Assembly: GCA_030264375.1 (NCBI GenBank)
Contig: JASCQW010000137.1
Location: 40,565,172-40,629,171 of the forward strand
DNA length: 64,000 bases
DNA from: Carcharhinus longimanus
Taxonomy: Eukaryota
Reading direction: 5' to 3'
Below the pieces are notes generated by a model that ran no database searches, was not told where the DNA came from, and saw only the letters and a list, made by a program, of their open reading frames with translations. Below, in pieces: positions 8,692-51,347 of this stretch (the stretch's first letter is position 1; every line of letters starts with the position of its first letter). The translations under genes were made by a program, and so were the position numbers.

Positions 8692-8862
8692 GATGTGGAG
8701 ATGCCGGCGTTGGACTGGGGTAAACACAGTAAGAAGTCTCATAACACCAGGTTAAAGTTCAACAGGTTTATTTGGTAGAGAGTCACCTGACAAAGGAGCA
8801 GTGCTCCGAAAGCTAGTGGTGTTTGCTACTAAATAAACCTGTTGGACTTGAACCTGGTGTTA
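8692..8862. mobile_element. Penelope-like fold-back element (family A) with decayed hammerhead
   Basis: Inverted arms acaccaggttaaagttcaacaggtttattt / aaataaacctgttggacttgaacctggtgt, one-sided tail, core tcac-CTGACAA-a-GGAGC agt GCTCC-GAAA-GC-TA-gtg at 8783-8818. Confidence 0.8.
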
Positions 8863-9014
8863 TAGTCAAACCTTTCCATCCTTTTTGTTAGGAAGCTCCT
8901 GACCAGTGCTGACCTCTGACATCTCAAGTGGGACCACAGCTGGGGTGCCAACCAGGGCTCAGCGGTTCAGTCCTTTGGATGAGACTTTAAAGCTTGCCCT
9001 CTGAAGTGATGAAG

Positions 9015-9360
9015 GCCGTGTAGCAGTACTGTTACTGGACTAGTCTTCCCGAGGCCCAGGCTAATGCTCAGGGGACACAGGTTCAAATCTCACCAGAGCA
9101 GCTGGTGATATTTAAATTCAATTAATAAAATCTGGACTATAAAGTTAGTCTTAGTGATGCTGTTGTGAAAACCATCTGGTTCACTAATATCTTTAGGGGA
9201 GGAAACTTGCCATCCTTCTCTGGTCTATTGGCCTACATGTGAGTGCAGAACCACAGCAATGTGACTGACTCTTAACTGCTGTGTGAAATGGCCTAGCAAG
9301 CCAAGGCCAATTAGGAATGGCCACATGCTGACCTGGTCAGTAACATTCAAAGCCCATCAA
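9015..9360 (+). mobile_element. tRNA-derived SINE, group B
   Basis: B-box-like ggttcaaatc plus tctggttcactaat...tttagggga body shared with 12360, 20950, 24160, 25755 and 55045. Confidence 0.8.
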
Positions 9361-10116
9361 AGACATACAAAAGGTCCCTTAAGTTATTTTGAAGATATGC
9401 TTGATAAAGATTAGTTCATTGCAACTATCTACTCCTTTTTCTTAGTTCACTATTCCAAGGTGGAGCATCTNNNNNNNNNNNNNNNNNNNNNNNNNNNNNN
9501 NNNNNNNNNNNNNNNNNNNNNNNNNNNNNNNNNNNNNNNNNNNNNNNNNNNNNNNNNNNNNNNNNNNNNNTCATTAAAACCGATAACCAAGTCATCATCA
9601 CGTTGTTGTTGATAAAAGCTTGTGCACAAATCGGGTTACATATTTTCTATATTACACGAGTGGCTACACCACATTGACTGTTAAGTATTTTGGGATGTTC
9701 TTAAGTTGTGAAAAGCTACATAAATATGATACAGCACACCCTTATGTCAACGTATTCTGTTAAAGTTTCTTCCATATTATTTGCATCTGTCAGAGGTACA
9801 TTTTTTTGCCATCTCTTACAAAATGTCAACTGATTGGTTCCGTGCACTTCCACCGTCCCCAGTTATCTTCTGATACGGCACGTATCATTAGGATTCATGT
9901 TTGAGCCTTTACAGACCCCATAAATTCACGTGGCTATCACAGCCTGGTCTGATGTCCACTTAACAAGCACACTCACTGAAGATTTGCGGGCCACTGACCA
10001 AAAGCAGGAACTCTGGGTGATTTATATTCCTTCCCCACTCAACTCCAGCAAATAGTGGACAATTGGATAAGTGAGTGGATATGACTGTGCGGAACGAAAG
10101 ATGTGAAATCAAGTAT

Positions 10117-10400
10117 AAAGTTTATTTATTAGTGTTGCAAGTAGGCTTACATTAACACTGCAATGAAATTACTGTGCAAGTCCCCTAGTCGCCATGTCTG
10201 CTTGTTTGGTAACACTGAGGGAGAATTTAGCAAAGCTAATGAATTAACCAGCGCATCTTTCAGACTGTGGTAGGAAACCAGAGCACCCGGAGGAAACCCA
10301 AGCAGATACAGGGAGAACGTGCAGACTCCGCACACACAATGATCCGAGCTGGGAATCGAACCCGGGTTCCTGGAGCTATGAGGCAGCAGCGCTAACCGCT
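10117..10400 (-). mobile_element. HE1-like SINE with alternative tail, near full length
   Basis: tRNA head (reverse complement gggaatcgaacccggg...gaggcagcagcgctaacc) and tail aaagtttatttattagtg...cccctagtcgcc. Confidence 0.92.
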
Positions 10401-11767
10401 ATACGAATGCCTTTGGAAAGGAGGGGAAGGGGGAAGGAAAATAAACTGGCATGCAACTAAAACAATTAAGCCTGGAGTTGGCAAATGTAGTGTTTTAAAA
10501 CACTATGTTCAGTAATAAAAATCTGTGGCTGTTTTTGCATCTATTTTGACAGTGAGCCTTGCAATTTATGCAGCAGAATTGTGATCGAATTGAGCAACTG
10601 ACTGCGCCAAGTGGGAGAGATTGTCAAAACTGCAATATCAAAGCAGATTTGAATCAGCCTTTGTCAGCTACATATAAATGTTTCATTTGGGAGTAAGACC
10701 ATTTGGCATCCGTGGAGTCTGCAAGATGCTGGGAGTGCTGACAGTCAGCAGGAATGGAAGAGTTGGCGACAGTTTCTCATGTGGTAGAGTTAATTTGTGT
10801 TTGGGCAGAAATGAAACATTGATTGATAAAGGTTGTCCCTGAGGGCCACGTCCTATTTCAAAGTGAAATGTGGGTGCCACATTTCCCTCCTCGGATCACC
10901 TCTGGAATTCTGTCACACCTCAGACTGAATATCCATTCTCTCGTGGCAATGGGTTTCCTATGCACTACCTGCTGGAAACTCAGAATTATCCCTTGTGTTA
11001 CAACACCTGCTCTTGAACAATCTCAGCAAGTTTACGCCAAGGTATAAAATAACAAATAGCTTTTTAAGTCACGATCTCCACAGAGGAACAGAGCCTAGAA
11101 CTTACTGACCATTCACACCGGCAGGTCCTCTGGACTGCGCATCTCCGCCATGGGTTCCCCGGCGACAAAGGGGACATTAAACGGGAAACCCCATTGACTT
11201 GGAGGTCCTGCCACCTCCAGACACAAGGCAGGTTGTGTGCGGGAAGTCCTGCCCTGTGTTGTTTTACATTGGTAAAATGAGCGCTCACTGTGCCTGAGTG
11301 CCAGATTAATTCAGCCACATGCTTCACTTCCAACTTGCTTTGTACAGGGAGCTCCCCCATTGCAATATCCCCACTGTTGGATTTCAGCACATCAATACTC
11401 AGTCAATGCGCACTCTCCAGAGATGGTCTTTCCAATATGCAGTGACTGAATAATGACAGGACATGATGCAGAGTGCATTATTTTTTATTGGGCAAAGCCA
11501 CCCCACAGCTGATATTTTCCATTCCTTTAGCTGGTACCTCGAGGATCGATTTTAACTGTACTCACCCAGCAGAAACCTAGCAGCTACCAATGAGCAGGTT
11601 ACTTACCCGCTCAGATTCCAACTAATTCCAATTGTCCATGATGTTAACCTGCGGGGATTTGCAGATGGCTGCAATTTTAACTGGGCCCCCGAGTGGGGAG
11701 ACTACTTCTGTCTCAACAGAGGCAGGTTTGCTACTGGCCAGAAGGCCACAGAGACCTGGGTGGATTC

Positions 11768-11870
11768 ACAGCTCTGACAAAGGGTTATCTGGACTCAAAA
11801 TGTTGCCTCTACTCTCTCCCCATGGATGCTGTCAGACCTGCTGAGGTTTTCCAACATTTTCTGTTTCAGT
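11768..11870 (+). mobile_element. Penelope-like family B fragment with decayed hammerhead
   Basis: CTGACAA-a-GGGTT atctg GACTC-AAAA-TG-TT followed by gatgctgtcagacctgctgag. Confidence 0.65.
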
Positions 11871-11899
11871 TACCACAGAGCCCTGCCTGGTAAGCGTAA

Positions 11900-12140
11900 G
11901 GAGCAAGAAGTGCCTCAAAAGGCTTGGCCTCCGGTGCCCAAGCTTTCCCCCTCTCCCTTCCACACCAGGCCCTCTTGAACTCTTTACCCCACCACTAGAG
12001 GCAGCTGATCCATTGGTCAGACACACTATGGGCACTTGCTGCAAATCCAGAGAGAAAAAGCATTTTGAGGAAATGGTTTCCCACCAGGAACTCGCTCCAA
12101 GTTACAGTCTGCCTGCCCTCTGTAATACAGGCAGCCATTT
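11900..12140 (-). mobile_element. Possible RTE-type LINE 3' relic
   Basis: Minus frame LTNGSAASSGGVKSSRGPGVEGRG loosely resembles an RTE ORF C-terminus; highly degenerate. Confidence 0.35.
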
Positions 12141-12359
12141 AAACCAGTGCAGGAAGGTATCACAAAAGACCAGCCAGGGAGCTGGAATCACTGTTCCCTT
12201 CCCATCTGTACTTGAGTTACAGCAAGAAAGAGATGGCTTATAGCAAATGGAGGAATGTAGCAAAAATTACAGCATCTGTCAGAAAATGGGATAGAAGTTC
12301 ACTCTTTTCCTATTATTTATGTTACATTAGGTCGCATTTGTTGCAAACGAATAGAGACA

Positions 12360-12706
12360 TTTCTTTTTCATTCATGGGACATGGGTGTCGCTGGCTGGCC
12401 AGCATTTATTGCCCATCATTCGTTGTCCTTACTGAGTGCGTGCTAGGCAATTTCAGAAGGCAGTTGAGAGTCAACTATATTGCTGTGGCTCTGGGCTCAC
12501 ATATAGGCCAGACCATGTAAGGACTGCAGATTTCCTTCCCTGAAGGACATTAGTGAACCAGGTGGGTTTTATGACAACCTCATGGTCATCAATAAATTTT
12601 TAATTCCAGATATTTTTATTGAATTCAAATTCCACCATCTGCCTTGGTGGGATTCGAATCTGAATCCCCAGAACAATAGCTGAGTTTATGGATTAATGGC
12701 CTAGCC
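12360..12706 (-). mobile_element. tRNA-derived SINE, group B
   Basis: Reverse complement of the 25755-26068 copy. Confidence 0.88.
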
Positions 12707-12714
12707 TCCTTTGA

Positions 12715-13138
12715 GGAGAATCCCCTCCCTGATGAGCTCAATGCATTCCACGTGCGTTTTGAGCAAGAGGTCAGTAAGAGCATGCCCTCCACCTTGGGAG
12801 CCCTGGATGAACCTGCATCTGGGGTCACCATTGCNNNNNNNNNNNNNNNNNNNNNNNNNNNNNNNNNNNNNNNNNNNNNNNNNNNNNNNNNNNNNNNNNN
12901 NNNNNNNNNNNNNNNNNNNNNNNNNNNNNNNNNNNNNNNNNNNNNNNNNNNNNNNNACTTTTGAATGGATTTACCTTGCATTAAGTTGATCTTTCTCTAC
13001 ATCCTAGCTATGACTGTAACACTACATTCTGCACTCTCTTATTTCCTTCTCTATGAATGGTATGCTTTGTCTGTTTAGCACGCGAGAAACAATACTTTTC
13101 ACTGTATGTTAATACATGTGGCAATAATAAATCAAATG
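12715..13138 (+). mobile_element. Rex1/Babar-type LINE fragment (gapped)
   Basis: LPDELNAFHVRFEQ matches the Rex/Babar motif LPDELNxFYARFE; 3'UTR after the gap ends aataaatcaaat. Confidence 0.8.
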
Positions 13139-13193
13139 AAAGAATTACTTTTAACAGAAATTGCAAAAGTGCTGCCCACTGTGTCAACTTATC

Positions 13194-13365
13194 ATAGGAT
13201 CCCTACAGTGCAGAATGAGGCCATTTGGCCCATCGAATCTGCACTGATCACAATCTCACTCAGCCCCTATCTCCGTAGCCCCACGTATTTACCCTGCTAA
13301 TTCCCCTGACACTGAGTGGCAATTCAGCATGGCCAACCAACTTAACCCATACATCTTTTGGACTT
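13194..13365 (-). mobile_element. HE1 SINE 3' half
   Basis: HER1-type tail (reverse complement ccctacagtgcagaa...ggccatttggcccatcg). Confidence 0.85.
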
Positions 13366-14047
13366 AGGTTCCCACCTTTTGGTCATCTTAGTAAATAGGA
13401 GATGCTAATTGTTGTAACTGAGAATTTTCTCAAATGGTTTTCCCTCTTTTTAGCCAGAGGTGAAACCTGTTGAAAATATTGTATTACTGTCGGGCGGGCT
13501 GTAGTTATTTGTTCTATAAATGTGGCAGTTGGTGATATTGGGAGTGCAGGAAATCCAGTATTGGTGCTGACTGCTAATGACGAGGCAATAATACCCCATG
13601 GTCTGCTGCAATATCTGACTTGCATTTTATTCTACTAATTAAAGTGGTTGTTCCTGCTGAAAGAATCAGTATTAGGTATTTTCTTTTTAATTTTACAGGA
13701 CGGAATAAATTCCTTGTCTGTCAGATGTCATTGCGTTCTTGTCAGTGTGAAGGTTCACATGTTCCAGTCCAGCAAAGTGCCTCATGCAATGTTCTCACAT
13801 CCCCTTTCTAATTCCACACTTCACATAGCTTTCTGGATAAGATCAGTTCGAAGAGTTAAATTGCAGCTGAATGTAAACACTCATGATTACAGTGAAGGGT
13901 AACATTCTGTCAAAGATCAGGCAAGGGTGAGGGTTGGGTAAGNNNNNNNNNNNNNNNNNNNNNNNNNNNNNNNNNNNNNNNNNCGGGTGGGGGAGGGGTG
14001 CGCTGGGGTTGCCTGACCTTTGCCTTTGTCTTGCCTCCTCACCTCTT

Positions 14048-14385
14048 TATAGAATCCCTACAGTGTAGCAGAAGGCCCATCAAGTCTGCATCGACTCTCT
14101 GACAGAGCCTCTAACCCAGGCCCTCCCACTGTCACCTCATAACACGCATGCATTTACCCCACTAAGCCCCTTAACCTACACGGCTTGCGATACTAAAGGA
14201 CAATTTACCATGGCCCATCTTGCCATATGCCGAGCCTGCAAACCTTTGGGCTGTGGGAGGAAACTGGAGCACCTGTTAGAAATCCACACAGAGGATGTAC
14301 AACTCCACACAAACAGTCACCCGAGGTCGGAATTGAACCCGGGTCCCTAGCGCTGTGAGATAGCACTGCTGGCCACTGTACCACC
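14048..14385 (-). mobile_element. HE1 SINE, full length
   Basis: tRNA head at about 14330-14385 and HER1-type tail at about 14048-14090. Confidence 0.9.
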
Positions 14386-15779
14386 CAGATCCAGCTCAGA
14401 TTCGGCCTGCGGGTTGTGGAGAATCTCTGACGTGGTTGCAGTGCAGCAACCTGTCTATTTACAGGTCCAACTGAAAATTGCATCAGCTGTGCCTAACTGG
14501 GATACCCTCCCTTCTGATCTTGCTGCAATGGTTGCTCATTTTCCAAGCAAGAAGTGGAATGGCCAGCATTTGGAAACACTCCTCTCTGCGCCAATATTTA
14601 TTTAAGTTGCCAACAAGCTGCAATTTCCAGATGAACCGAAAGCTGTTTTCTTTCCTCCAGTGATAAGCCACAACCATCATTTCAAAAGTTAATTCCAAGC
14701 TGTTATATTTTCATTTTTCTTTGTCTTTGAGCAATGCCAGTGCCTGTGCCGTGGATCGAGTTTAAGGTCACTGTGCACACTTAAGCTCTACTTCACTGTG
14801 CTCTGCTGTTAATCCAGCCTGTTATTTAATGTTCTCCTTTGCGTTTGCACCAAAACATCACTGCTTCGTTTCTCAGCTGTTTGAGTCGAGGCATAAAAAC
14901 AAAATGAGGAAGAAACAGCTGGTACGCAGCTTGTGATGGGTCTTCGGCAATGCTGAAAAGTACACTTGAAAAGCACATTAATTTCAGCGTGTGCATTCAA
15001 AATGAAGTTTGAATAGTGAAATATCATAGTTCAGGTTGCACGCTCTAAGGCACACACAAATCTTTACGTTTTTTTTCTTTCAATTAATGCAACAATTTTG
15101 TGCATTTATGTGCGATATAGAAAGAAGAATGTCCACAAGCACAGAAGTTTGTTTCCACCAATGGAGATGGGAAGGGGTCACCAGAAATTTGGTTGAAGAG
15201 ATTGTTTGGACTCCAAGGTGGAGAAGCTTAAACAGGGAATTCCAAGCCCAAAGTGCCAGAATGGCCTAGATCAGGTAGGATAGGGGCGTTAAGGCAAATG
15301 GGACTCGAACTGGGTTAAGAGTTGTGCAGCAAAGTTTGCCATGAGTTGAGGTCCATGGGAAATGAAGGATGGGATGCCAGCATCAGATTGCCGTGTCGGA
15401 GGTTTACAATGTCACGCGTGAGTGTTTCAGAGCAGAGGGACCAGAGTGTGGCAACTAGGGGATTTTCACAGAAACTTCATTGCAGTGTTAATGTAAGCTT
15501 ACTTATGACACTAAGAAGTTAACTAATTTACCTGAAGAATACCTGGGGCTGCCTCTGAAATTTGGGATGGGGCCACCGAAAACCCTGGGCCCTGGAACAC
15601 CACAGTAGTGGGTGGAGAAGCATCTAACAGGTGGATCTTCCAGCTTCAGTATCACCGAGGAGGTACATCTTCCAGCCACAGAGTGAACCTGGTGATGTCC
15701 ACATTTATCATCGATTCTGTCATCTTTTCCTAATATGAAGCAATTTATTTCTTTGTACCTTCAGCATTGACTTAATTAT

Positions 15780-16370
15780 AGCCTGGCTGATTGGTAACCC
15801 ATTCACCATCTTAAACATTCACTCCCCCCACCACTGATGCACAGTTGCTGCATATACAAGATGCATGCTGTAATGTACCAAGGCTCATAGAATCCCNNNN
15901 NNNNNNNNNNNNNNNNNNNNNNNNNNNNNNNNNNNNNNNNNNNNNNNNNNNNNNNNNNNNNNNNNNNNNNNNNNNNNNNNNNNNNNNNNNNNNNNNCAAT
16001 GCAGAAGGAGGCCATTCAGCCCATCAAGCCTGTGCCGACACTAATCCCGCCCAGGTTCTTTCCCCATAATCGCAAATATTTACCCTGCTAATTCCCTTGA
16101 CAATAAGTGGCAATTTAGCATGGCCAATCCACCTAACTCACTCATCTTTGACTCCTTCAATAGCTTTTTTTAACCTGTGACCTCTACTACCGAGTAGAAC
16201 AAGGACAAGCAGACACATGGGAACATGCCCACTCGCATGTTCCTAATAGCACTGTGGGTGTAGCTACACCACACATACTGCAACAGCTCAAAAAGGTGGA
16301 TCACCATCACCTTCTAAGGGGATATGAGGATGGGAAATAAATGCTTGCCTAGCCAACGTGGTTCACCTCC
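15780..16370 (+). mobile_element. LINE 3' relic sharing its tail with group B SINEs, interrupted by an HE1 SINE and a gap
   Basis: aacattcactccccc...atacaagatgca and tail gatgggaaataaatgct; HE1 piece at 15997-16150. Confidence 0.55.
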
Positions 16371-17840: not shown

Positions 17841-18167
17841 NNNNNNNNNNNNNNNNNNNNNNNNNNNNNNNNNNNNNNNNNNNNNNNNNNNNNNNNNNNN
17901 NNNNNNNNNNNNNNNNNNNNNNNNNNNNNNNNNNNNNNNNNNNNNNNNNNNNNNNNNNNNNNNNNNNNNNNNNNNNNNNNNNNNNNNNNNNNNNNNNNNN
18001 NNNNNNNNNNNNNNNNNNNNNNNNNNNNNNNNNNNNNNNNNNNNNNNNNNNNNNNNNNNNNNNNNNNNNNNNNNNNNNNNNNNNNNNNNNNNNNNNNNNN
18101 NNNNNNNNNNNNNNNNNNNNNNNNNNNNNNNNNNNNNNNNNNNNNNNNNNNNNNNNNNNNNNNNNNG

Positions 18168-23116: not shown

Positions 23117-23139
23117 ATACATAATAGAAGAAATAGTTT

Positions 23140-26068: not shown

Positions 26069-26128
26069 ATGTTGGTTGCTGGTGGACACCATGCCGAACT
26101 CCGGAAGCAGACCAGGCATTGTTCCCCA

Positions 26129-26425
26129 TTAACATTCCAGGCAATGACCACACATGTTTACAACTTTAAGGTAAATGAGGCATGAGGCTATTTTTTGCCC
26201 CTGTAGCTAACTGCCTCTGTCTGAGAGTTGATAAGATAAAACAGCTTCTTACACCTTTAGCTAACTATTTACCCAACCCACCCTTTGATAAAAAGTAATT
26301 TACTCCATTTGTTCAGTTACAATTCGATTTTCAAGTGCTCCCCATCTTGGGACCAAGCTTCTGATATCCATTTGACAGGTGTCAGCTGTTTCTAGACATT
26401 CCATTAGGAGGTAATGTAGATTAGG
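26129..26425 (+). repeat. Left arm of 297-bp inverted duplication
   Basis: Reverse complement of 28224-28520 with about 14 substitutions counted by eye. Confidence 0.96.
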
Positions 26426-27543: not shown

Positions 27544-27905
27544 TACCCTAAATTACCAGAGGAAAGATCCAGATGGTATTTACAGTGGAAACCAAAACAT
27601 TCAGTCTCAGGACTAGCAGAAGGGAAATTTAGGAGCGGCATTAAGAAATTAGTTCTTCACACATCAACACATGGACTGGAATCTTCTAGCCTCCAACACC
27701 ACTGGGATCTTCCAGTCCAGTCGAAAGTCAGTGGATTTTTGGCTGGACCACCGCATCCTCCATAGTGGATCTCAAATTCTGACCATAGAATGGACTTCCA
27801 GCTCCGGTAGTGGAGGCAAAAACCTTGGAACCATTTAAGAAACAATTGGGTGCAGCAATAAGAGGACCTTAGAATCATTCTAAATGAATGGATTAAAATT
27901 TCCCT

Positions 27906-28047
27906 CAGTAAGAAGTCTCACAACACCAGGTTAAAGTCCAATAGGTTTATTTGGTAGTAAATGCCACTAAACCTGTTGGACTTTAACCTGATGTTGTGAG
28001 ACTTCTTGCTGTGTTTACCCCAGTCCAACGCCAGCATCTTCACATTA
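27906..28047. mobile_element. Family A fold-back element with hammerhead deleted
   Basis: cagtaagaagtctcacaacaccaggttaaagtccaa pairs with ttggactttaacctgatgttgtgagacttcttgctg; tail follows. Confidence 0.85.
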
Positions 28048-28223
28048 CAATTTCCTCAGAAGAGATAGCCTGTGAGTGGGTGATTCACAGAATTTTTGTT
28101 TTCGATAGATATCAGATTGTGGTGCTTATCCTGTACAATGTAAGGTTACACTAACCTGTGTGTTTATCCACCCAAATTGGGATTGTCCCTGAACAGTCTG
28201 TCGGATGTTTTACATAGCTGGGC

Positions 28224-28520
28224 CCTAATCTACATTACCTCCTGATGGAATGTCTAGAAACAGCTGACACCTGTCAAATGGATATCAGAATCTTGGTCCC
28301 AAGATGGGGAGCACTTGAAAATCGAATTGTAACTGAACAAATGGAGCGAATTATCTTTTATCAAAGAGGGGGTTGGGTAAATAGTTAGCTAAAGGTGTAA
28401 GAAGCTGTTTTATCTTATCAACTGTCAGACAGAGGCAATTAGCTACTGGGGTGAAAAATAGCCTCATGCCTCATTTACCTTAAAGTTGTAAACATGTGTG
28501 GTCATTGACTGGAATGTTAA
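28224..28520 (-). repeat. Right arm of 297-bp inverted duplication
   Basis: Reverse complement of 26129-26425. Confidence 0.96.
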
Positions 28521-28868
28521 TTTTAACTCTTAAGCTGCCAGCAGATTGAGGGAAATGTCCATCTTCTTAAATCGAGCAGTTTTCTAAGTCTTTAAATCAT
28601 GGAGAGATGTGGGCTATAATGCTGAGAATGTCATTGAGATATTCCTGATATTTATGCAGCTTTATTAATGTGATAGTAAACTTAAAATATTAAAAATGAA
28701 TGCCCAATTTCTCAAAAACCAAAAGGTAACCTTGTCTGATATTTTTCTTCATTTTTATTCTTTATCTTCCAATTTTGGAATGTAGACAAATTCATTTGTT
28801 ATCCTGCCGCCCCTGAGATTTGGATAGTTAGAACTACTTGAACTGTTGCAGCCTTTGTGATAATTCCT

Positions 28869-32150: not shown

Positions 32151-32199
32151 CCGTAGTGGATATCATCACCCAGTTATGTGGACATCCAGAAATCTAGAC

Positions 32200-33485: not shown

Positions 33486-33606
33486 AATGCAAAATACTGC
33501 CAATGCTGGAATCTGAAACAAAAACAGAAAAATCTCAGCAGGTCTGTCAGCATCTGTGGAGAGAGAATAGAGCCAACATTTCGAGTCAAGATGACCCTTC
33601 ATCAGC
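33486..33606 (-). mobile_element. Penelope-like family B fragment
   Basis: Body tctcagcaggtctgtcagcatctgtgg is shared with the 11820 and 35310 copies; ends at the hammerhead core. Confidence 0.75.
33571..33605 (-). ncRNA. Hammerhead ribozyme core (family B), stem I unpaired
   Basis: CUGAUGA-A-GGGUC aucuu GACUC-GAAA-UG-UU. Confidence 0.65.
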
Positions 33607-33724
33607 AGGCAGGACTTTGCTTTANNNNNNNNNNNNNNNNNNNNNNNNNNNNNNNNNNNNNNNNNNNNNNNNNNNNNNNNNNNNNNNNNNNNNNNNNNNN
33701 NNNNNNNNNNNNNNNNNNNNNNNN

Positions 33725-33906
33725 CTTTCGGGGTTAGCCCATTCATCAGATGAAGGGAGAGTTCTGGCCTCAGACAGAGCTTTATATAAGCACAGGCCAG
33801 AACTCTCCATTCACCTGATGAAGGGGCTAACCCCGAAAGCTAGTGAGTGTACTATCGAATAAATCGGTTGGACTTAAACCTGGTGTTGTCAGACTTTTTA
33901 CTCTGC
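33725..33906. mobile_element. Family A fold-back element with hammerheads on both strands
   Basis: Arms 33725-33770 and 33794-33839 are inverted; followed by aataaatcggttggacttaaacctggtgttg. Confidence 0.88.
33809..33848 (+). ncRNA. Minimal type-I hammerhead ribozyme, intact core
   Basis: AUUCAC-CUGAUGA-A-GGGG cuaa CCCC-GAAA-GC-UA^GUGAGU: 6-bp stem I, 4-bp stem II, palindromic AGCU in place of stem III. Confidence 0.85.
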
Positions 33907-35186: not shown

Positions 35187-35352
35187 AAAGAAAATTACTG
35201 TGGATGCTGGAATCTGGAACCAAAAGAGAAAATGCTGGAAAATCTCAGCAGCTCAACGCTTTGACAAAGGGAAATCTGGACTTGAAAATTCAACTCTTTT
35301 CTCTCCCCACAGATGCTGCCAGACCTGCTGAGGTTTTCCAGCATTTTCTCTA
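35187..35352. mobile_element. Family B fold-back element with decayed hammerhead
   Basis: agagaaaatgctggaaaatctcagcag / ctgctgaggttttccagcattttctct arms around ttgacaa-a-gggaa atctg gactt-gaaa. Confidence 0.75.
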
Positions 35353-35988
35353 TTGGCTTAAAAATCAGACAGTTGACACTAAACCTCCAGATATTTTATT
35401 AATCTGAAGTTGAGATGAAGGGAATAAAGTCAAGGAAATGGGTGCCATATTAATCAGCACCTGAAGGGGAATGAAAGGGAAACATTAAGGCGCGATGCTT
35501 CAACACACCCGATTTTCTGAGTTACTGTTGACCAGTCTTATTTAACAAACTCTATTTTGCAAAGCACAGTCTTACTCCCAGATATACCCATAGATTTTCT
35601 GCTTGGTTTCCATTGTTTTCTGTACTTCTAGATACTATAATGAAGCCTGGAGTTAGCTAACCTGCAGGAAATTGCCATCTTATCTTCCGATTTGGATTAC
35701 ATCCCTAATCTAAATTTCCATGTAAGTCCAAAAATAACACTGGTTCCTGATTTTCCGAGGCAGCAAACTCCAGATAAGAATCCAGTTCTCTGTACAAAAT
35801 CATCGTCTATCGTGCAACATGCATTGTTCATTTAATACTGGATGGCGCAGCAAGTAGATAAGGCAAGACCTGGCTGCTGTGTTAATGAAAAGCACAGAAT
35901 ATGCAAGAAATAGGTTTGAAAGTACGTGTCTGCTGCCCCCTGTATACAGTTATTTTTCATCAACCCTGCAGTGCCGAACTATGCATAT

Positions 35989-36192
35989 ACAGTAAGAAGT
36001 CTCGCAACACCACGTTAAAGTCCAACAGGTTTATTTGGAATCACGAGCTTTTGGACCGCTGCTCCTTCATCAGGTGAGCGGAGAAGTTGGTTTCACAAAC
36101 ACGGTATCTATAGACCAAGACACAGTTGCAAGATAATGGGGTTGGAATGCAAGTCTTTACAGGTAATCAAGGCTTCACAGGTACAGACAATG
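35989..36192 (-). mobile_element. Family A single arm with mutated hammerhead (36041-36077)
   Basis: Reverse complement: tcac-CTGATGA-a-GGAGC agc GGTCC-AAAA-GC-TC-gtga (GAAA changed to AAAA). Confidence 0.82.
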
Positions 36193-43118: not shown

Positions 43119-43435
43119 CCAAAATATTTTTAATCTCCCCATGATGTTATACACAGAGTGAAATTCAAGTCACTGCTTCTGAGGAACTGAGAGTTAGAAG
43201 ATAGTGGAATAAAACTGAACCATGACACCAAGTTTTGGGACTTAGTTTCAGTGCTTATTTTTATATTTACACATTATGTTTTTCGATGTCGAGGCCAATA
43301 ATGGCTTTGGTTTCTTGACAGTCATGTTAGGATTACACTCTTTTGCAGTCGCAATAGGGCATCTCCCACTGGAACCAGAATGCAATTACACCATCAAAAA
43401 TAAAAGTTGAAGTTTGAAGCAAGAAACTTTTAATT

Positions 43436-44440
43436 ACATAGAACACACAGCACTGGGAGAGGCCATTCAGCCCATCAAGTTTATTGCTCCACTTGTACCT
43501 CCTTCCATTCTTCCTCATCTAACCGTAACTGCTTCACCCGCTATTCCCTTCCACCTCATGTACTTGTCCAGCTTTTCCTTAAATGCATCTATACCATTTA
43601 CCTCAGCAATTTCTTACAGCTCTCTGGACAGAGAAATTGCTTCAAAATACTCAATTTGATTTCCCTGTGATATTTATATTGCTCATCCCCAGAAGTAGAA
43701 ACAATCTTTCTATATCCGATCTATCAAAACCTTTCAGAATTGTAATAGCCTGTATTAGGTCATTTGTCACCTTTCATTTTTCAAAGGGAAAAAGACCCAT
43801 CTCTTCAGAACCTGCACGGTGGCACAGTGGCTAGTGCGATTGCCTCGCAGCACCAGACACCCGGGTTCAATTCCAGACCCTAGTCACTGTCTGTGTGAAG
43901 TCTGCACGTTCTCTCCGTGTCTGCGTGGGTTTCCTCTGGATGCTCCAGTTTCCCACAGTGCAAAGATGTGTGGATTAGGGGCAAATAGATGGGATAGGGC
44001 CTGGGAAAGATGCTCTATTGGAGAGTTGGTACAGACTTGATGGGCCGAATGGGCTCCGTCTGCACTGTAGGGATTCTGTGATTCTTCCTGATAGGTATAA
44101 CCTTTCAATTCTTATCATTGTAAACCATTTTTTGTAACCTTATGAAGCACCTTTATATCCTTTTTTATAATCTGGTGACTAGGCTGTACACAATATGACA
44201 AATGTGGTCTAACCAAGGTTTCATTCAAGTTTAACCTGATTCCTCTGCTTTTCAATTCCCCCTTCCCTCTAAGTCAACTCCATTACTTATTTGCTTTTCT
44301 AATGATCTCATTGACCTCCATCGCAATGGCTAGTGATTTGTGTATTTGTGCTCCTGCACCCCTTTGCTCTTCTGACCTATTCAGATTCTTGCTTTCCAAG
44401 TTATCTGCGACCTTTATTTTTCTTGTCAGAATGTAATGGC
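43436..44440 (-). mobile_element. CR1 LINE relic interrupted by an HE1 SINE (+, 43814-44085)
   Basis: LINE tail catagaacacacagc; aaatgtggtctaaccaagg; SINE head gcacggtggcacagtggctag. Confidence 0.8.
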
Positions 44441-44514
44441 TCATGTCAAAACTCGTGACAGTCAGATGGCGAGGAATAAAACATGAGCGCCTAGCTTTTA
44501 CTTAGAGAGACGCA

Positions 44515-44686
44515 GGGCAGAATTCTCCAGCACCACCATCGGCCGTCACCGGGATCTTCCTGCCCTGCCGAAGTCGGTGGTGATTTACACTGTTCGCCCG
44601 AGCCACCGCTGGAGAACCTGTGGCAGGGGCCAACTTCGACGGAACTGGAAGATCCCACCAGCTGGAAGGGCTGGAGAATTCTGCCC
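44515..44686. mobile_element. MITE with perfect 17-bp TIRs
   Basis: gggcagaattctccagc / gctggagaattctgccc; relatives at about 7400, 11120, 29895, 30475, 37550, 41570, 48465, 54548 and 62830. Confidence 0.85.
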
Positions 44687-45094
44687 ACAAGCACGAGTGA
44701 GTCCCCAATTCATGCCCACCACTCGAATACAATTAACACCTAATTGTTGAAATTCATTTGCCAATCCTGAATGTTTATTGTTGTCTATTTCTAATTTGTT
44801 GCAGCCCTTCCTCTTGACTATTGATCCAAATTTCATAATCTCCACAAAATTGAAAATGAGGTTTTTCGTTCTAAATTTAAATACAAAGTGTAAGTAATGG
44901 TCGTTCCAATACTGGTTCTTGTGAGGCCTCACTTTCCACCTTCTACCACCCTCTATCATGACTACTCGATTATAACCTTTCTGTCATCCTGCTATTGGTC
45001 TCCTGACAATCACCTTATTCATTCACCTACGTGTGGTATCTTATCAAAGGCCTTTAAAAAGAACCCTTTCAGTTACTTAAAAAACCTTTTGTTG

Positions 45095-45368
45095 TAGTTT
45101 TATTGCATTTCAGCCCCATGCTCCTGATCCATGGGCACTCAGCATGGAGAGGGGCGGGAAAGGAGGAGGACCTCCTTGTGGACCTGCCTCTAGGACTGGC
45201 CAATCTTGCCATTAATGGAGAGTTGCCCGATCAGACTGTTTGCCCACTACCGTGGCCACACTCGTAGCCCGTATGCCCCTGGAGAGGGAGCATGAAGTGT
45301 CCGAGGGCGCCATCAAGACCTTCCGCTCTCAGAAGGACTGGGGTGCCTTATCAATGCTGTTAATCATG
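45095..45368 (+). mobile_element. Tx1/L1-type LINE 3' fragment
   Basis: Encodes LLIHGHSAWRGAGKEEDLLVDLPLGLANLAIN, typical of a Tx1 ORF2 C-terminus. Confidence 0.7.
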
Positions 45369-45376
45369 TTTTGAAA

Positions 45377-45672
45377 GTGGCACAGTGGTTAGCACTGCTC
45401 CTTCACAGCACCAGGGAGCCAAGTTCGATTCCTGCCTTGGGTCACTGTCTTTGTGGAGTTTGCACGTTCTCCCCATGTCTGCGTGGGTTTCCTGTGGCTG
45501 TTCCGGTTTCCTCCCACAGCCCAAACGTCGTGCAGATTAGGTGCGTTGGCCATGCTAAAATCTCACTTAGTGTACCCGAACAGGTGCCAGACTCTGGCGA
45601 CTAGGAGATTTTCACAGTAACTTCATTGCAGTGTTAATGTAAGCCTACTTGTGACACTAATAAATAAACTTT
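45377..45672 (+). mobile_element. HE1-like SINE with alternative tail, full length
   Basis: gtggcacagtggttagcactgct...gcctacttgtgacactaataaataaacttt. Confidence 0.93.
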
Positions 45673-46154
45673 AGAAACAAAACTTTCAAAGTTTCATTGG
45701 TAATTTACTTTTTTAAGGGGTTGTCCTTATTGCTTTATCCCTCAGTTTATTTCATTTAGTTTAATTGGTTAACTTAAAAGAGTTGAAAATCCTGAAATAT
45801 TGCATCTACCACCCGACCCTTGTTTACCCTCCCTGTTACCTCCTCAAAGAATTTGAGAGATTAAGATTTTTCCTTGTGAAATCTCTGTTGACTATTCATC
45901 ATTATTTTTTTTATTCCTTTATTCCAGTTCTTGCTCTCACTGCTTTACTCCAGTTCATGGCGTCACCTTGATTATTAGTTGTGTCGCATAGTGTGGAATT
46001 CCCTCATCCTGTCCACGGCAGGTTTGGTGGTGGGTGAGAGTGGAGAATTTAGTCGGAAACCCACTGGCATAAAATCAGATTTTCTTAATGGCAGGTCAGC
46101 TTTTCTGTTTCATTTGCACCTCATGAATGCTCATTAAAATAGCTGCCAACTGGG

Positions 46155-46337
46155 CATCCAAAGATGTGCAAGTTAGGTGCATTGACCATGCTAAATTGCC
46201 CCTTAGTGTTCCAAGATGCGTAGGTTAGAGGAATTTGCAGGGAAAAGTACAGGGATAGGACCTGAGTGGGATAGTTGTCAGTGCAGACTTGATGGGCTGA
46301 ATGGCCTCCTTTTGCACAGTAGGGTTCTATGATTCTA
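46155..46337 (+). mobile_element. HE1 SINE 3' half
   Basis: catgctaaattgccccttagtg...gtagggttctatgattctat. Confidence 0.87.
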
Positions 46338-47107
46338 TCAGGCATTCCAATCTTGCGTCACATCAGCATGTGGTTACATTGGTCAAAAGCTCGATTGCTA
46401 ACAAGTATTGTGTGGTCTTCAGTTTACAAGACATTTTTGAGGTGAGTGCACCAAAGCCTTTCTGCCATAGTACTGCACTGCTCCTGATGCACTGCTCACC
46501 ACTCTGCTGGGGCAGACCACATCCTGTTCTCCATCTCCATACCGAGCTAGTTTTCGAGGACAGCACCATGCTGCTGGATCGTACACATTCCTGTGTCACC
46601 GTCTCAGATCAGTGCTGCGCCTGGGGTTGGGGAGTGCAGGAGTCTCATTCACTCCCAGTCCACACACCAGTCTCTATCTGGGCAGCAAGATTCATGCAAC
46701 CACCGCAATAAAGATCCAAGGTTCAACCTGGGGTACAAGTTGAGGCCAGGCTGGGGAAAGGGTGTGGGTGAGGGATCTGATGAAGACAGAGGGGCACAAT
46801 TAGAAGGAGGTCTGAGCAGGAAGCAGTTGGGGGGACAAGCGACAGCTCACGACGGCAGGCAGAGGGGCAAGGGGGTGGATGAAAATGATGAACAATGGAA
46901 GGCAGAAGGATGACCAAGTGGAGGGAAGCTGGATCCTGACTAATCTGTCTGAAAAGTAGGCAAACCAGATGATCTAAGGGATAGCACGCGTACGACTAGA
47001 AGGGGATGCAGACGGCAGATTATGGGTAATACATTAGGGATGGTTTGCACAAATACTAGCAGGCCAAGGCTGCATTTTTAAAGTAGAAGGAGCTGAGAGA
47101 GGACCTA

Positions 47108-47245
47108 CCCTGGCAGAGCAGATGAGATCGTTCATCTTCTTTCTGCATTGGAAGGTACTCTGCAGGTAGTGGGCAGCCATTCTGACCTCCTGTACAATGG
47201 CTTCCCAGGCCAGAGAGGTGAGGTTGTTGTGTTTCTTGGTGCCAA
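47108..47245 (-). mobile_element. Harbinger Myb/SANT-like DNA-binding ORF fragment
   Basis: LAWEAIVQEVRMAAHYLQSTFQCRKKMNDLICSAR matches AWxxI..QCRKKxNDL, followed by a gtagg donor. Confidence 0.8.
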
Positions 47246-48184
47246 NNNNNNNNNNNNNNNNNNNNNNNNNNNNNNNNNNNNNNNNNNNNNNNNNNNNNNN
47301 NNNNNNNNNNNNNNNNNNNNNNNNNNNNNNNNNNNNNNNNNNNNNNNNNNNNNNNNNNNNNNNNNNNNNNNNNNNNNNNNNNNNNNNNNNNNNNNNNNNN
47401 NNNNNNNNNNNNNNNNNNNNNNNNNNNNNNNNNNNNNNNNNNNNNNNNNNNNNNNNNNNNNNNNNNNNNNNNNNNNNNNNNNNNNNNNNNNNNNNNNNNN
47501 NNNNNNNNNNNNNNNNNNNNNNNNNNNNNNNNNNNNNNNNNNNNNNNNNNNNNNNNNNNNNNNNNNNNNNNNNNNNNNNNNNNNNNNNNNNNNNNNNNNN
47601 NNNNNNNNNNNNNNNNNNNNNNNNNNNNNNNNNNNNNNNNNNNNNNNNNNNNNNNNNNNNNNNNNNNNNNNNNNNNNNNNNNNNNNNNNNNNNNNNNNNN
47701 NNNNNNNNNNNNNNNNNNNNNNNNNNNNNNNNNNNNNNNNNNNNNNNNNNNNNNNNNNNNNNNNNNNATAGGCAGTTCATGGAGTCATTCAGTGAGTATT
47801 TCTGATTTGATGCCAGCAGTGTCATTTTGGAGCTCAGCCGATACCTTTTTTTAACCCGTCATAGCTGTGCAAAAAACCCCTCACTAGTGCTATTTATAGG
47901 TTTCATCAACTGCTTACAGATTCGTTGCTGGATGATTTCTGACTGTTATTATGATGCTTTCCAGAGTTGTTTCAGGTCACAGAAGAGCTCACAGGATGTG
48001 GTGATGCAGATACTGAAGCACTTTTACTAACTTCAAGTTTTCTGCAAACCAGTTGCTCCCACACGTGCACTAGTAGTCATTCCCCCTGGAACACAGCATG
48101 ACCTGGAGAGGAAGCAGAGGCCACACAGAGCAAGATATGTTACTGGAAGAGGGAAGAATTGAAGAAGGGCTCTCAACAGTAGAA

Positions 48185-48390
48185 TTCACTGCCCCCCGAA
48201 TGTAGTTGAGGCCAGAATGTTGTCTGATTTCAAGAAATTAGATACAGCTCTTGGGGCTAAAGGGTTCAAGGGATATGGAATAAAGGGGGGAATCAGGGTA
48301 TTGAATTCAATGATCAGCCATGATCAAGTTGAATGGCGGAGCAGGTTTGAGGGGCCAATTGGCCTATTACGACTTCTAGTTACTATGTAA
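48185..48390 (+). mobile_element. CR1 LINE 3' end
   Basis: gatcagccatgatcaagttgaatggcggagcagg. Confidence 0.85.
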
Positions 48391-48769
48391 CAGGAGGACA
48401 TATCAAGAAAAGTGCTCAGGGAGCAATTGCCCTGCCGGAACCTCAGTGTGGAACAATAGCTGGAACTTTCTGGCCATTCATGCCGGTGGGATTTTCCAGT
48501 CCTGCTGATGGCGCAACTGTACCATGGGTTTCAGACATTCAGTTGCATTCAATGGGAAATGCCATTGACAATGGCAGGGCCATAAGATCCTGCCACCAAC
48601 CCTTGCAGTAAATGTGTTTCAATGTGTTTGACATCTGCTTTTCACAGAGTCTGTCCTCACTGAAATCTACCTGCAGCAGCACAACTCCAAACTTTTAAGT
48701 ATACATGAGCTGCACTGCCTGTGGCTGTGAAGGTGATCCCCTGCTAAACTGGTAAATCTAGTACCTCTA

Positions 48770-49012
48770 CTCAAGAAAGGAGGGAAGAGAGAAAACAGGG
48801 AACAACAGACCAGTTAATCTGACATCAGTCAACAGAAAAATGTTGTTCTGAAGGATATTCGAGAAAATGATGGTATTATCAGACAAAATCAACATGGTTT
48901 TACAAATGGAACATCATGTTTGATGAATTTATTAGTCTTTTTTGAGAATGTAACCTGTAAGGTAGATAGAGGGAATCCAGTTTCCAAAACATTGACTCAG
49001 ATGCCACAAAAA
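48770..49012 (+). mobile_element. CR1 RT fragment
   Basis: Encodes KGGKREKTGNNRPVNLTS and QNQHGFTNGTSCLMNLLVFFENVT. Confidence 0.87.
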
Positions 49013-49909
49013 AGGACTCTTATATTTTGTACAACAGCCCTTCCTTCTGCAAAGAGAGTATAAGGGAGTGTTTCCCTGAACTGCATCTCACATTCCTCAT
49101 GCCCATTTTTGGGGGGTATCCATATTGGGTTGCAAGGGCTTGCCCCCCCATTTCTGCCAATCCTCTGGGGTCACTCCTTAGTGCCACCAAAGTGCAAGAG
49201 CACTCCCCAACTGCCCTGAACCCTGATTTGCTTCCTCCCACACTATTGAATACCAGATAGCTGTGCCCACTTGGGTGAACCATGCATTGCTGTGTACTCT
49301 TAAGCTTTGCAAGTGACTCGTCATGAACGTCAGAAACCTGTAGCCGGATGAGGGAATATTTAAAAAGCAAAGGCCACTTATTCACGGAATAATGGACAAA
49401 GTTGTGAAATTCCATTCCCTAGCACCAATTACAATTTCAGAATACCATTTAATAAGAATGGAATGTGACTTATTAGGCTCTGTATGTCAGTGGCATGAAG
49501 TTAGCTGCTGCAGGGCATACCCAGAACTCTGACTCACTATGAGGAACACCACAGGAGACTTGGTAATACATCTGTTTACGGGATCTTTCCTAAGAATTCA
49601 TTTGTGGGCTATTTCAAGATTTCAGTGGAAAATAAATCAGTGTATTTATTTTTGTTTGGGTTGTCAGGAGAATCTGCAGAGTTAAACCTCTGGACTTGCA
49701 GCAAACTGTTACATGCAGTCATTTGGTGACATGATCTATTTCAGTAACAGCGGATATTTGGAAGTGCAGGAGATTGTAACTGAGAACAGGGAACTTGCAT
49801 TCCAATTTTTCAGTCGAGTTAGTCTCCTCAGCTCCCCTCACGTTTTTACTTGTCTTGAGCTTGTTTTAATAATGCAGCAAAATAAGTAACACTCCAGATG
49901 TCCCTGAGC

Positions 49910-50385
49910 TGTGACGCCTAACTGTATATTGGGCCTCTTTAAGGTCAGGTGACCTGGGACTCTAGCTCCACCCTGGGTGGAGCTTGCCCAGCCGGTCTTG
50001 TGTCGAGTGTGCTGGGATAAAGACATACAATCATAGAACCTAGAGTGCAGAAGGAGGCCGTTGGGCCTAACAAGTCTGTCCCGATGACGATCCCACCCAG
50101 GCCCTATCCCCATAACCCCATGCATTTACCCTAGCTAGTCCCCTGACGCTAAGGGGCAATTTAGCATGGCCAATCCACCTAACCCGCACATCTTTGGAGC
50201 ACCCAGAGCAGACATGGGGAGAATGTACAAACTCCACATAGACAGTGACCCAAGCCTGGAATCAAACCCGGGCCCCTGGCGCTGTGAGGCAGCAGTGCTA
50301 ACCAGTGTGCCACTGAGCAGCCCATTGTGTTAATAAACTGTTCCAGTTAGTTTACAACCACTGACTTCTGGTGGTTCATTATTAG
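49910..50385 (+). mobile_element. Probable solo LTR containing an HE1 SINE (-, 50030-50322)
   Basis: TGTGAC start, cctctttaag..ggtgacc, AATAAA after the SINE; the SINE itself is unambiguous. Confidence 0.6.
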
Positions 50386-50808
50386 CCTTGGTATCAGATC
50401 CCAAACATTATACAATGGGAAACAGTACCTTTATTGGTTCTGCCCATAGGTCTGCTGGGCATTGCTTAGAGCTGCCATCTGCTGCAAGTGCGTGTCAGGC
50501 AAAATTTGACCATAAATATTTGAAAAATCCAAAATCATAACTACCCGTCTGTCGAGTAAATCTGACAAGACATTGCAGTGATGCAATGGGTAAATGCAGG
50601 ATCAAACAGACCAGGCAAGTGCCAGTATCAATCAGCCATTTCTAGTGACTTAATGAGTCACATGTGGTGAGGTAAATGATTTAGCAGAAGCAGTCAGCGG
50701 CCAGTATGGGGAAAAAACTCGAAGGAAAACTGCAAAGCTGTATTTCCAAAGGAGAAATTCTGCTTAGAATAGCAAAACCTTTGAGCACGGGAGCTGTACA
50801 GTTTGTTG

Positions 50809-51347
50809 GTAAGAAGTCTCACACCAGGTTAGAGTCCAACCAGTTTATTTGATCGTAATCTCACAAACTTTCGGAAACGGTGTTCCTTCGTCAGGTGTGT
50901 GGAAGGTTCTGATAAGAGAAGGCAATATAAAGACACACTCAGTTTACAGAATACTGATTAGAATGCAAGTCTTTACAGCTAACCTGCTATTCAAGTCTTA
51001 AAGATGCAGACAATGTNNNNNNNNNNNNNNNNNNNNNNNNNNNNNNNNNNNNNNNNNNNNNNNNNNNNNNNNNNNNNNNNNNNNNNNNNNNNNNNNNNNN
51101 NNNNNNNNNNNNNNNNGCAGACAATAGCAGGTTAGCTGTAAAGACTTGCATTCTAATCAGTATTCTGTAAACTGTGTGTGACTTTATATTCCCTTCTCTT
51201 ATCAGAACCTTCTACACACCTGATGAAGGAACACCATTTCCGAAAGTTTGTGGGTTTACTATCAAATAAACTGATTGGACTCTAACCTGGTGTTATGAGA
51301 CTTCTTACTGTGTTTACCTCAGTCCAACGCCGGCATCTCCACATCAT
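50809..51347. mobile_element. Family A long fold-back element with a hammerhead in each arm
   Basis: 50809-50990 is inverted relative to 51123-51308; one-sided tail to 51347; a gap lies in the loop. Confidence 0.88.
51217..51252 (+). ncRNA. Minimal hammerhead ribozyme (mirror copy on - at about 50862-50897)
   Basis: CAC-CUGAUGA-A-GGAA caccau UUCC-GAAA-GU-UU^GUG; the mirror copy has CUGACGA. Confidence 0.72.

What the first reader, a model, noticed from the sequence alone, without database searches (positions are those of the whole stretch)
8692..51347. Family-level evidence: hammerhead stem II covaries across five dispersed fold-back elements
Seen: copies at 8692, 27906, 33725, 35989 and 50809 share termini. 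Stem II differs but stays paired: GGAGC/GCTCC, GGGG/CCCC, GGAA/TTCC. Core losses are CpG-type (CTGACGA to CTGACAA, CGAAA to CAAAA). Several copies have an asymmetric tail of about 38 nt (tgtgtttaccccagtccaacgccggcatctccacatca). Known: Penelope-like retroelements carry minimal hammerheads, inverted pseudo-LTRs and a short 3' extension. Inference: an abundant non-autonomous, ribozyme-bearing retroelement family selected on RNA structure during transposition and decaying afterwards.
Basis: partly seen in the sequence, partly recalled or inferred. Interest (0 to 1): 0.7.

Follow-up and report, generated by a model that had tools for sequence, protein, structure and literature searches.

The report
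Shark Penelope retrotransposon hammerhead end stubs
These five short repeats are cut-off, mostly hairpin-shaped 3' ends of a very common shark Penelope-type jumping gene that carries a small self-cutting RNA motif, a known kind of element rather than a new self-copying family.

Summary
The five copies are real and share the 3' end of a Penelope-like retroelement (PLE). The finding overstates them: only four hold a hammerhead (27906 has none), four are fold-backs (35989 is single-armed), and stem II is broken in 35989. The covariation comes down to two independent compensatory swaps among three subfamilies.

The motif fits the published minimal, dimer-type PLE hammerhead. The 36-38 nt one-sided tail, head-to-head arms and 7-12 bp target duplications are textbook PLE features.

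Two public protein records join these ends to a GIY-YIG endonuclease: a shark gene model reading collinearly from endonuclease through UTR, hammerhead and tail, and an unnamed fold-back chimera. The endonuclease has a Neptune/Nematis-type cysteine linker. Public contigs show tens of thousands of matching pieces, sharp tail ends and many different fold-back junctions.

So these are truncated insertion products of autonomous elements, not a fixed non-autonomous family. Selection on structure among source elements followed by CpG decay is plausible, but already described for PLE hammerheads.

One open lead: the two arms are not nested, and one arm starts at the predicted ribozyme cleavage site, a possible in vivo footprint of cleavage.

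The parts
8691..8861 (.). Copy A, fold-back: tail plus short arm (8691-8778, minus), 4-nt filler, then hammerhead plus arm (8783-8861, plus)
   Evidence: tail end confirmed by pile-up of loose ends at 8691/8692
8691..8728 (-). 38-nt tail of A, A+C 61%; probably ends on the A of the parent's start codon (inferred)
   Evidence: (loose ends at 8691 and 8725)
8783..8820 (+). Minimal type I hammerhead of A: C3 at 8787, G8 decayed to A at 8792, 5-bp stem II 8795-8807, AGCU at 15.1-16.1, predicted cleavage after 8815
   Evidence: G at 8792 in 79-96% of laid depth
8676..8682 (+). Left copy of the candidate 7-bp target duplication of A (right copy 8862-8868); 8 extra nt lie between it and the tail
   Evidence: chance 0.017-0.032
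27906..28047 (.). Copy B, fold-back without hammerhead: tail-less arm (27906-27967, minus) begins at the predicted cleavage site, within a 2-nt ambiguity; tail-bearing arm (27968-28047, plus)
27897..27908 (+). Left copy of the 11-12 bp target duplication of B (right copy 28049-28059)
   Evidence: chance about 0.001
33726..33905 (.). Copy C, fold-back, left arm cut by an N gap; near-palindromic TATA-like junction at about 33779-33791; intact hammerhead on the right arm; no tail visible
33808..33849 (+). Intact minimal hammerhead of C: 7-bp stem I, GGGG/CCCC stem II, AGCU palindrome
   Evidence: MFE fold gives both stems, z -3.1, 3 of 200 shuffles as good
35989..36192 (-). Copy D, single-armed 5'-truncated copy, at least 204 nt: part of 3' UTR, decayed hammerhead (about 36040-36078), arm, no tail; upstream limit approximate
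50809..51346 (.). Copy E, fold-back with long arms (50809-51016 minus, tail-less; 51123-51346 plus, with tail), 93% alike over 186 nt; hammerheads at 50857-50902 (minus) and 51212-51257 (plus); 100-N gap at the junction
50802..50810 (+). Left copy of the candidate 9-bp target duplication of E, 8 of 9 alike (right copy 51348-51356)
   Evidence: chance about 0.1, weak

Best explanation
The copies are 5'-truncated, dead-on-arrival insertion products of several subfamilies of an autonomous endonuclease-bearing Penelope-like retrotransposon of sharks (Neptune/Nematis-type linker). Steps: (1) Shown by linkage in public records: the parent is RT plus C-terminal GIY-YIG endonuclease, then about 200 nt of UTR, a minimal hammerhead, a 50-nt arm and a tail. 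(2) From the Anolis element, inferred here: the protein cuts both DNA strands and starts reverse transcription at two internal RNA sites 35-38 nt apart, which gives arms with and without the tail. (3) Inferred: two short cDNAs, one from each DNA end, join head to head through 0-4 nt of microhomology or filler, leaving a fold-back with a one-sided tail and a 7-12 bp target duplication; a one-ended event gives copy D. (4) Inferred: the hammerhead has no helix III of its own and could cut only as a dimer, through the AGCU palindrome, or with protein help. It is kept paired in the source elements, which gives the stem II swaps between subfamilies. (5) Shown: after insertion the copies decay, mostly at CpG.
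For: P0173, a Scyliorhinus torazame gene model, has residues 1-110 at 94.5% identity to a shark PLE endonuclease and residues 160-234 matching the sense reading of UTR, hammerhead, arm and tail of copies D and E (E 4e-10 to 1e-8). P0136, from an 808-nt ENA contig, has the antisense reading of tail plus arm (19 of 23 identical to E) joined straight to an endonuclease C-terminus; 12 of its 15 longer relatives carry shark names. Metagenome locus L002 has the same core and arm (81% over 58 nt) downstream of a GIY-YIG C-terminus. The linked endonucleases have C-x4-C-x2-C before the GIY-YIG core, the Neptune/Nematis mark. Laid contigs: 77,224 records in the best run, sharp ends at 8691/8692 (2,577 + 593) with unrelated flanks, a second end at 8725 (472), and 383 joints. 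The motif matches the published consensus. Tail, inverted truncated copy and 8-10 bp duplications are published PLE features.
Against: No intact parent was seen as one DNA locus. The link rests on two predicted proteins: 1 of the 153 other proteins held and 1 of 21 matched these copies, and 0 of 30 further cluster members did. The window holds no coding remnant of the element. Target duplications are weak for A and E, and D has none. Only 1 of the 5 hammerhead-bearing stretches of this family that were folded (C) stands out against shuffles. Self-cleavage was not tested. Some identical junctions recur at tens of copy-equivalents in one run, which a small re-amplified subfamily could also give. 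The two-cDNA step could be mimicked by later deletion at a palindrome centre.
Confidence: 0.88

Rival explanations
1. The stubs are a true non-autonomous family: fold-back RNAs are transcribed and re-copied in trans by the parent's protein, so structure is selected at the stub level.
For: Very high copy number and short length. One junction recurs at summed depth 274 against about 9 for single-copy sequence in run X15. pLTRs alone sufficed for mobilisation in trans in a rotifer, and non-autonomous PLE derivatives exist.
Against: Four fold-backs have four different junctions and lengths. 383 joints were found, and the 13 skip joints shown are all different. The same ends occur on endonuclease coding sequence. 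In the Anolis element the template must extend to ORF position 172, beyond the mapped start at 111-118, so a stub should lack part of the protein-binding site (inference). B has no ribozyme to select on.
Confidence: 0.07
2. Same origin, but each fold-back arises by snap-back self-priming of a single cDNA, or from antisense templates, with later asymmetric deletion at the palindrome centre.
For: C has a near-perfect palindrome at its junction, and Arkhipova et al. 2013 read such palindromes as self-priming. Arms within a copy are 92-96% alike.
Against: In 3 of 3 copies with both ends visible (A, B, E) each arm holds sequence the other lacks: tail on one, more 5' sequence on the other. A plain copy-back cannot give this without a later deletion each time. 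E rests on reading across an N gap.
Confidence: 0.3
3. The fold-backs are miniature inverted-repeat DNA transposons and the hammerhead is incidental.
For: Short elements with inverted ends and flanking duplications.
Against: Ends are asymmetric; duplications differ in length (7, 11-12, 9); D has one arm; the arms are collinear with a retroelement 3' end; the hammerhead descriptor gave 0 hits in 200 simulations.
Confidence: 0.01

Closest known systems
Minimal type I hammerheads (min-HHR) in pLTRs of metazoan Penelope-like elements (Cervera and De la Pena 2014, PMC4209133)
   Same: CUGANGA core, extra base between positions 9 and 10.1, G10.1-C11.1, no helix III, palindromic 15.1-16.1, short stem I, several covarying families per genome, mostly single or opposite-strand truncated copies.
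   Different: No cartilaginous fish among the species in their supplementary Fig. S3 and Table S1 as I read them. Stem II here is 4-5 bp, at the short end of their range.
Canonical EN+ PLEs, Neptune/Nematis type (Craig et al. 2021, bioRxiv 10.1101/2021.04.23.441226; Arkhipova et al. 2013, PMC3846280)
   Same: RT then C-terminal GIY-YIG with two cysteines inside the core, CX2-5CxxC linker, 5' truncation, inverted truncated copy, 30-40 nt tail on one side, 8-10 bp duplications.
   Different: No RT tree was built, so Neptune against Nematis is open. In the rotifer Pen2a element the pLTR and tail include the first ORF codons, whereas here the tail seems to stop at the start codon (weak inference).
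Poseidon from Anolis carolinensis, PAc (Frangieh et al. 2024, PMC11167929)
   Same: Works like it: two internal RT start sites define an AC-rich tail, both strands are cut and extended, and the hammerhead lies upstream of the tail.
   Different: Different clade (Penelope/Poseidon lacks the cysteine linker). The PAc ORF starts inside the hammerhead; here it appears to start about 110 nt after the cleavage site.
Animal non-LTR retrozymes (Cervera and De la Pena 2020, PMC7229834; Li et al. 2026, bioRxiv 10.64898/2026.07.22.740005)
   Same: Non-coding, hammerhead-bearing, derived from PLE pLTRs; reported in one chondrichthyan genome.
   Different: Retrozymes are head-to-tail tandem arrays with a hammerhead in each unit; these copies are dispersed and head-to-head or single.

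Membership tests
EN+ Penelope-like element (truncated copies) | RT and C-terminal GIY-YIG coding sequence upstream of the pLTR | tested here: met
   Indirect: P0173 collinear from endonuclease to tail; P0136 chimera; L002; RT in relatives P0166 and P0009. No coding remnant in the window.
EN+ Penelope-like element (truncated copies) | Optional 30-40 nt tail on one end | tested here: met
   3 of 5 copies; two end positions 34-35 nt apart in laid contigs
EN+ Penelope-like element (truncated copies) | Inverted 5'-truncated copy joined head to head | tested here: met
   4 of 5 copies (A, B, C, E); D has one arm
EN+ Penelope-like element (truncated copies) | Short target duplication of variable length | tested here: inconclusive
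   B clear (about 0.001), A moderate (0.02-0.03), E weak (0.1), D none, C hidden by a gap; no empty site seen
Neptune/Nematis clades | CX2-5CxxC linker before the GIY-YIG core | tested here: met
   Present in 9 of 9 proteins examined; definition
Neptune/Nematis clades | RT phylogeny with clade references | not tested
   No labelled Repbase references were available from the tools
min-HHR of PLEs | CUGANGA, extra base, G10.1-C11.1, GAAA, U16.1 and H17 not G, short stem I | tested here: met
   Intact in C right, E left and E right; one core change each in A and D; H17 is A, A, C, U, U; consensus
min-HHR of PLEs | Palindromic 15.1-16.1 allowing a dimer helix III | tested here: met
   AGCU self-pairs in A, C and D; AGUU in both arms of E does not
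min-HHR of PLEs | Self-cleavage as a dimer or with protein help | not testable with these tools
   Needs an assay; only contigs were available
Canonical hammerhead (Rfam families) | Covariance-model match | tested here: not met
   0 of 11 matches at E up to 5 were hammerhead families; expected for a motif without helix III
Non-LTR retrozyme | Head-to-tail tandem units, each with a hammerhead | tested here: not met
   0 of 11 tandem rows overlap the copies
Non-autonomous PLE family or MITE | Fixed ends, junction and internal sequence shared by the copies | tested here: not met
   Four junctions in four fold-backs; 383 joints; duplications of 7, 11-12 and 9 bp

The most novel reading that the evidence does not exclude
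The stubs are a fossil record of the RNA templates and of a two-ended insertion mechanism. Each arm was primed separately from one DNA end at one of the two RT start sites, and many arms ran off at natural RNA 5' ends: the hammerhead cleavage site (B's tail-less arm begins there, within 2 nt) or the promoter start near stem I (A's tail-less arm). With some 100,000 copies per genome, a pile-up of junctions at the cleavage site, present only in subfamilies with an intact core, would be genomic evidence that PLE minimal hammerheads cut in vivo during transposition. Frangieh et al. found no RNA-seq reads ending at the site and no need for cleavage in vitro.
Probability: 0.2. Interest if true: 0.6.

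Novelty: new member of a known kind. Interest (0 to 1): 0.17.

Why it matters
As it stands, this adds a very abundant shark family to a described class and helps repeat annotation: such ends are captured in shark gene models, for example a septin model whose first 234 or so residues are read from this element. The class has an open question, whether the minimal hammerhead ever cuts in vivo and why it is conserved. A family with this many dispersed, junction-bearing copies is good material for testing that by computation alone.

Tried and rejected
No whole genome is held for this window, so there was no genome-wide copy set and no R-scape-type test.

Rfam found no hammerhead; its microRNA matches on B and on the 35.2-kb hairpin are all below gathering score and are rejected as hairpin noise. 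Exact scans for the 3' arm found nothing in viral contigs or metagenome contigs. A hammerhead-core pattern found 2 loci, which are 99.6% alike over 677 nt and count as one element.

No RNA holder was listed; run X19 is only guessed to be RNA, so nothing is claimed on expression. In one search none of the 40 of 169 variant rows shown falls in stem II, so genome-wide covariation could not be read. Two single contigs among 12 of 240 insert rows show further stem II variants with extra paired changes; this is a hint only. No empty site was seen: X1 and X9 hold A's left junction, and X15 has 188 nt where the window has 283.

The endonuclease piece of L002 had no Pfam or NCBIfam match; its identity rests on the Atlas and on relatives with RT. 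A search with the N-terminal 130 residues of P0009 found 0 hits among 63 candidates, so the tail-to-start-codon link stays weak. Model R1 had the structure off by one column and was not used; R2 found only the known copies, plus 3 matches at E 0.3 or worse. The tail and arm show no fold beyond shuffles in 3 of 3 copies. Weak Pfam rows below cut-off were taken as chance.

Literature searches for a description of this shark family (and 87 for twin priming) returned none that deals with it in the listing. Dfam and Repbase could not be searched, and the supplementary tables of the 2026 retrozyme preprint were not seen; either may list it.
Full report
Observation. The five copies, A (8691-8861), B (27906-28047), C (33726-33905), D (35989 to about 36192) and E (50809-51346), are in the window and match each other. 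Read on the hammerhead strand, each ends in the same 50-nt arm. Four of the five tail-less arms stop within about 4 nt of the tail start; A's stops about 17 nt earlier. The 38-nt tail is exact in A, has 1 mismatch in E and 3 in B; C and D show none. A, B, C and E are head-to-head fold-backs, while D has one arm. B holds no hammerhead. A covariance model built from these copies found no further copy in the window.

The ribozyme motif. Parsed copies give stem I, CUGANGA, one extra A, a 4-5 bp stem II opening with G10.1-C11.1, GAAA, two bases, U16.1, H17 and stem I. A strict descriptor hits 3 times in the window and never in 200 Markov simulations. H17 is A, A, C, U, U and never G. Positions 15.1-16.1 are the palindrome AGCU in A, C and D, but AGUU in both arms of E. 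This is the minimal hammerhead of Cervera and De la Pena (PMC4209133; I read parts 1-2 of 4 of the text and parts 1-2 of 3 of the supplement). Rfam does not detect it: 0 of 11 matches. Only C folds better than shuffles on its own (z -3.1; 1 of the 5 stretches of this family folded).

Covariation. On 7 rows (5 window arms and 2 near-identical metagenome rows) 90.9% of cells pair and 3 of 10 pairs change on both sides, 2 of them in stem II. Slid controls reach at most 54% paired. But each stem II swap arose once (A-U to G-C in C; G-C to A-U in E, counted twice), the fifth pair is lost in C and E, and D has a G.G mismatch. Both arms of C, and both of E, share their variant, and the upstream UTRs of D and E are 70-75% alike, so the variants mark different source subfamilies. 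The core losses are decay: G8 of A reads G in 79, 80, 96 and 85% of laid depth in the four runs, and the loose-end consensus for D's subfamily has an intact stem II and GAAA. CpG observed over expected is 0.30 in the window, so CpG loss is the ordinary background.

Abundance and ends. Laying public contigs on 8464-9470 placed 77,224, 64,182, 41,354 and 3,458 records. In X1 the summed depth is 8.6 million over the tail and 1.3 million over the hammerhead, against 21 on the flank. The tool warns this is no copy number, but it agrees with 5 copies in 64 kb, which points to some 100,000 copies per genome (inference). Matches stop sharply at 8691/8692 (2,577 and 593 records) with unrelated flanks (agreement 0.35), and again at 8725 (472), which are the two tail boundaries; 24 of 2,000 loose-end rows were shown. 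There were 383 joints; the 13 skip joints among the 15 shown are all different fold-back junctions. Candidate target duplications are 11-12 bp for B (chance about 0.001), 7 bp for A (0.02-0.03) and 8 of 9 for E (0.1); D has none.

The parent. A hammerhead-core scan of metagenomes found one element in two loci. In L002 the same core and arm (81% over 58 nt to A) lie downstream of a GIY-YIG C-terminus. Searching with that piece gave 3,273 relatives, 150 listed. One of them, P0136, matched the window: residues 22-44 are the antisense reading of tail plus arm (19 of 23 identical to E) and the rest is an endonuclease C-terminus. It is a fold-back truncated inside the coding region. Of its 15 longer relatives, 12 carry shark names, at 65-81% identity. 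One, P0173 (Scyliorhinus torazame septin model), reads through the element in sense: residues 1-110 are 94.5% identical to a shark PLE endonuclease, and 160-234 match UTR, hammerhead, arm and tail of D and E. Relatives carry RT and are 60-65% identical to an 881-residue full-length protein, P0009. All 9 proteins checked have the C-x4-C-x2-C linker that marks Neptune and Nematis (Craig et al., passages only). Against this: only 1 of 153, 1 of 21 and 0 of 30 proteins tested matched these copies, no intact parent was seen as DNA, and the window has no coding remnant. The weak consensus beyond the tail in X1 translates as M-T-I-I-D and one shark model begins MATID, which hints that the tail ends at the start codon; a direct search for this failed.

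Mechanism. For the Anolis element, Frangieh et al. (PMC11167929; parts 1-2 of 4 read) showed cutting and extension of both strands, two internal RT start sites that bound the tail, a need for template RNA out to ORF position 172, and a protein-assisted hammerhead not needed for insertion in vitro. That explains the one-sided tail, and suggests that stubs lack part of the signal needed to move again (inference). In A, B and E the tail-bearing arm is the shorter at its 5' side and the tail-less arm reaches further upstream (E assumes the 100-N gap is an overlap). Neither arm can then be a plain copy of the other, so I favour two cDNAs primed from the two DNA ends and joined head to head. Snap-back with later central deletion remains possible, and C's palindromic junction fits the self-priming reading of Arkhipova et al. 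(PMC3846280, passages). B's tail-less arm begins at the predicted cleavage site, within a 2-nt ambiguity, and A's at the start of stem I. One such coincidence among four short arms is not significant (roughly one in ten by my estimate). The 13 skip joints shown all resume 7-21 nt after the site, but they are a selected subset.

Comparison and novelty. The copies are not retrozymes: no tandem array overlaps them (definition from Li et al., parts 1-3 of 5 read; PMC7229834, passages). I found no paper describing this shark family (searches; listings only unless noted), but Dfam, Repbase and the preprint's supplementary tables were not seen. Two earlier AI notes of this scan reach the same reading in other genomes; they are not independent support. 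That the surrounding repeats are HE1-like SINEs and CR1-like LINEs is recalled, not tested.

Verdict. A real, very abundant family of shark PLE end fragments with a minimal hammerhead: a new member of a known kind, interest 0.17. The lead worth following is a genome-wide map of arm 5' ends against the cleavage site.

Noticed in passing
window 33490-33624 (-), 11771-11875 (+), 35190-35356, 56866-57247: A second, unrelated-looking family with a minimal hammerhead (5-bp stem II, 5-nt loop, decayed ACGU-type palindrome) and fold-back arms; CpG-type core losses at 11.8 and 35.3 kb. The 33.5-kb copy lies directly across an N gap from copy C.
   Followed up: partly
window 8675-8690: Between A's tail and its target duplication lie 8 extra nt that repeat the last 5 nt of the tail, and the duplication itself resembles the weak consensus seen beyond tail ends in four runs. 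This may be priming by microhomology to RNA just past the tail, followed by slippage.
   Followed up: partly
window 33783-33813; 36075-36112; 51182-51219: TATA-like words lie about 27-30 nt upstream of the hammerhead's stem I in C (left arm), D and E, similar to the TATA plus initiator described in rotifer pLTRs.
   Followed up: no
window 26128-26425 and 28224-28521: 298-nt inverted repeat, 95% alike, enclosing 1.8 kb that includes copy B and a SINE; origin unknown.
   Followed up: no
window 8464-8537 and 9397-9470: 74-nt inverted repeat that runs into N gaps on both sides of the stretch holding copy A. A contig of X1 bridges 9397; a contig of X15 stops matching there.
   Followed up: partly
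window 51017-51123: The same 9 letters stand on both sides of E's 100-N gap, so the gap is probably an overlap and E is about 430 nt long with a 3-nt microhomology junction.
   Followed up: partly
L002 1-109, 660-1090; L001 99-449: In the metagenome element, inverted pieces of its own RT and linker coding sequence lie between the endonuclease stop and the hammerhead, a complex tandem and inverted PLE arrangement.
   Followed up: no
proteins P0173, P0168, P0169, P0044, P0019, P0161: Several shark gene models (septin 5a, XRCC5, PPP1R12A-like, FAM210B, a cytochrome P450, a pyrin-domain protein) include stretches of this PLE's coding sequence; annotation artefact or exonisation was not distinguished.
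   Followed up: no
window 9010-9310; many SINE-like and LINE-like pieces, e.g. 51377-51693, 6045-6452, 12680-12964: Other high-copy repeats: two in A's right flank (depth peaks) and many tRNA-type SINE and LINE remnants; names recalled only.
   Followed up: no
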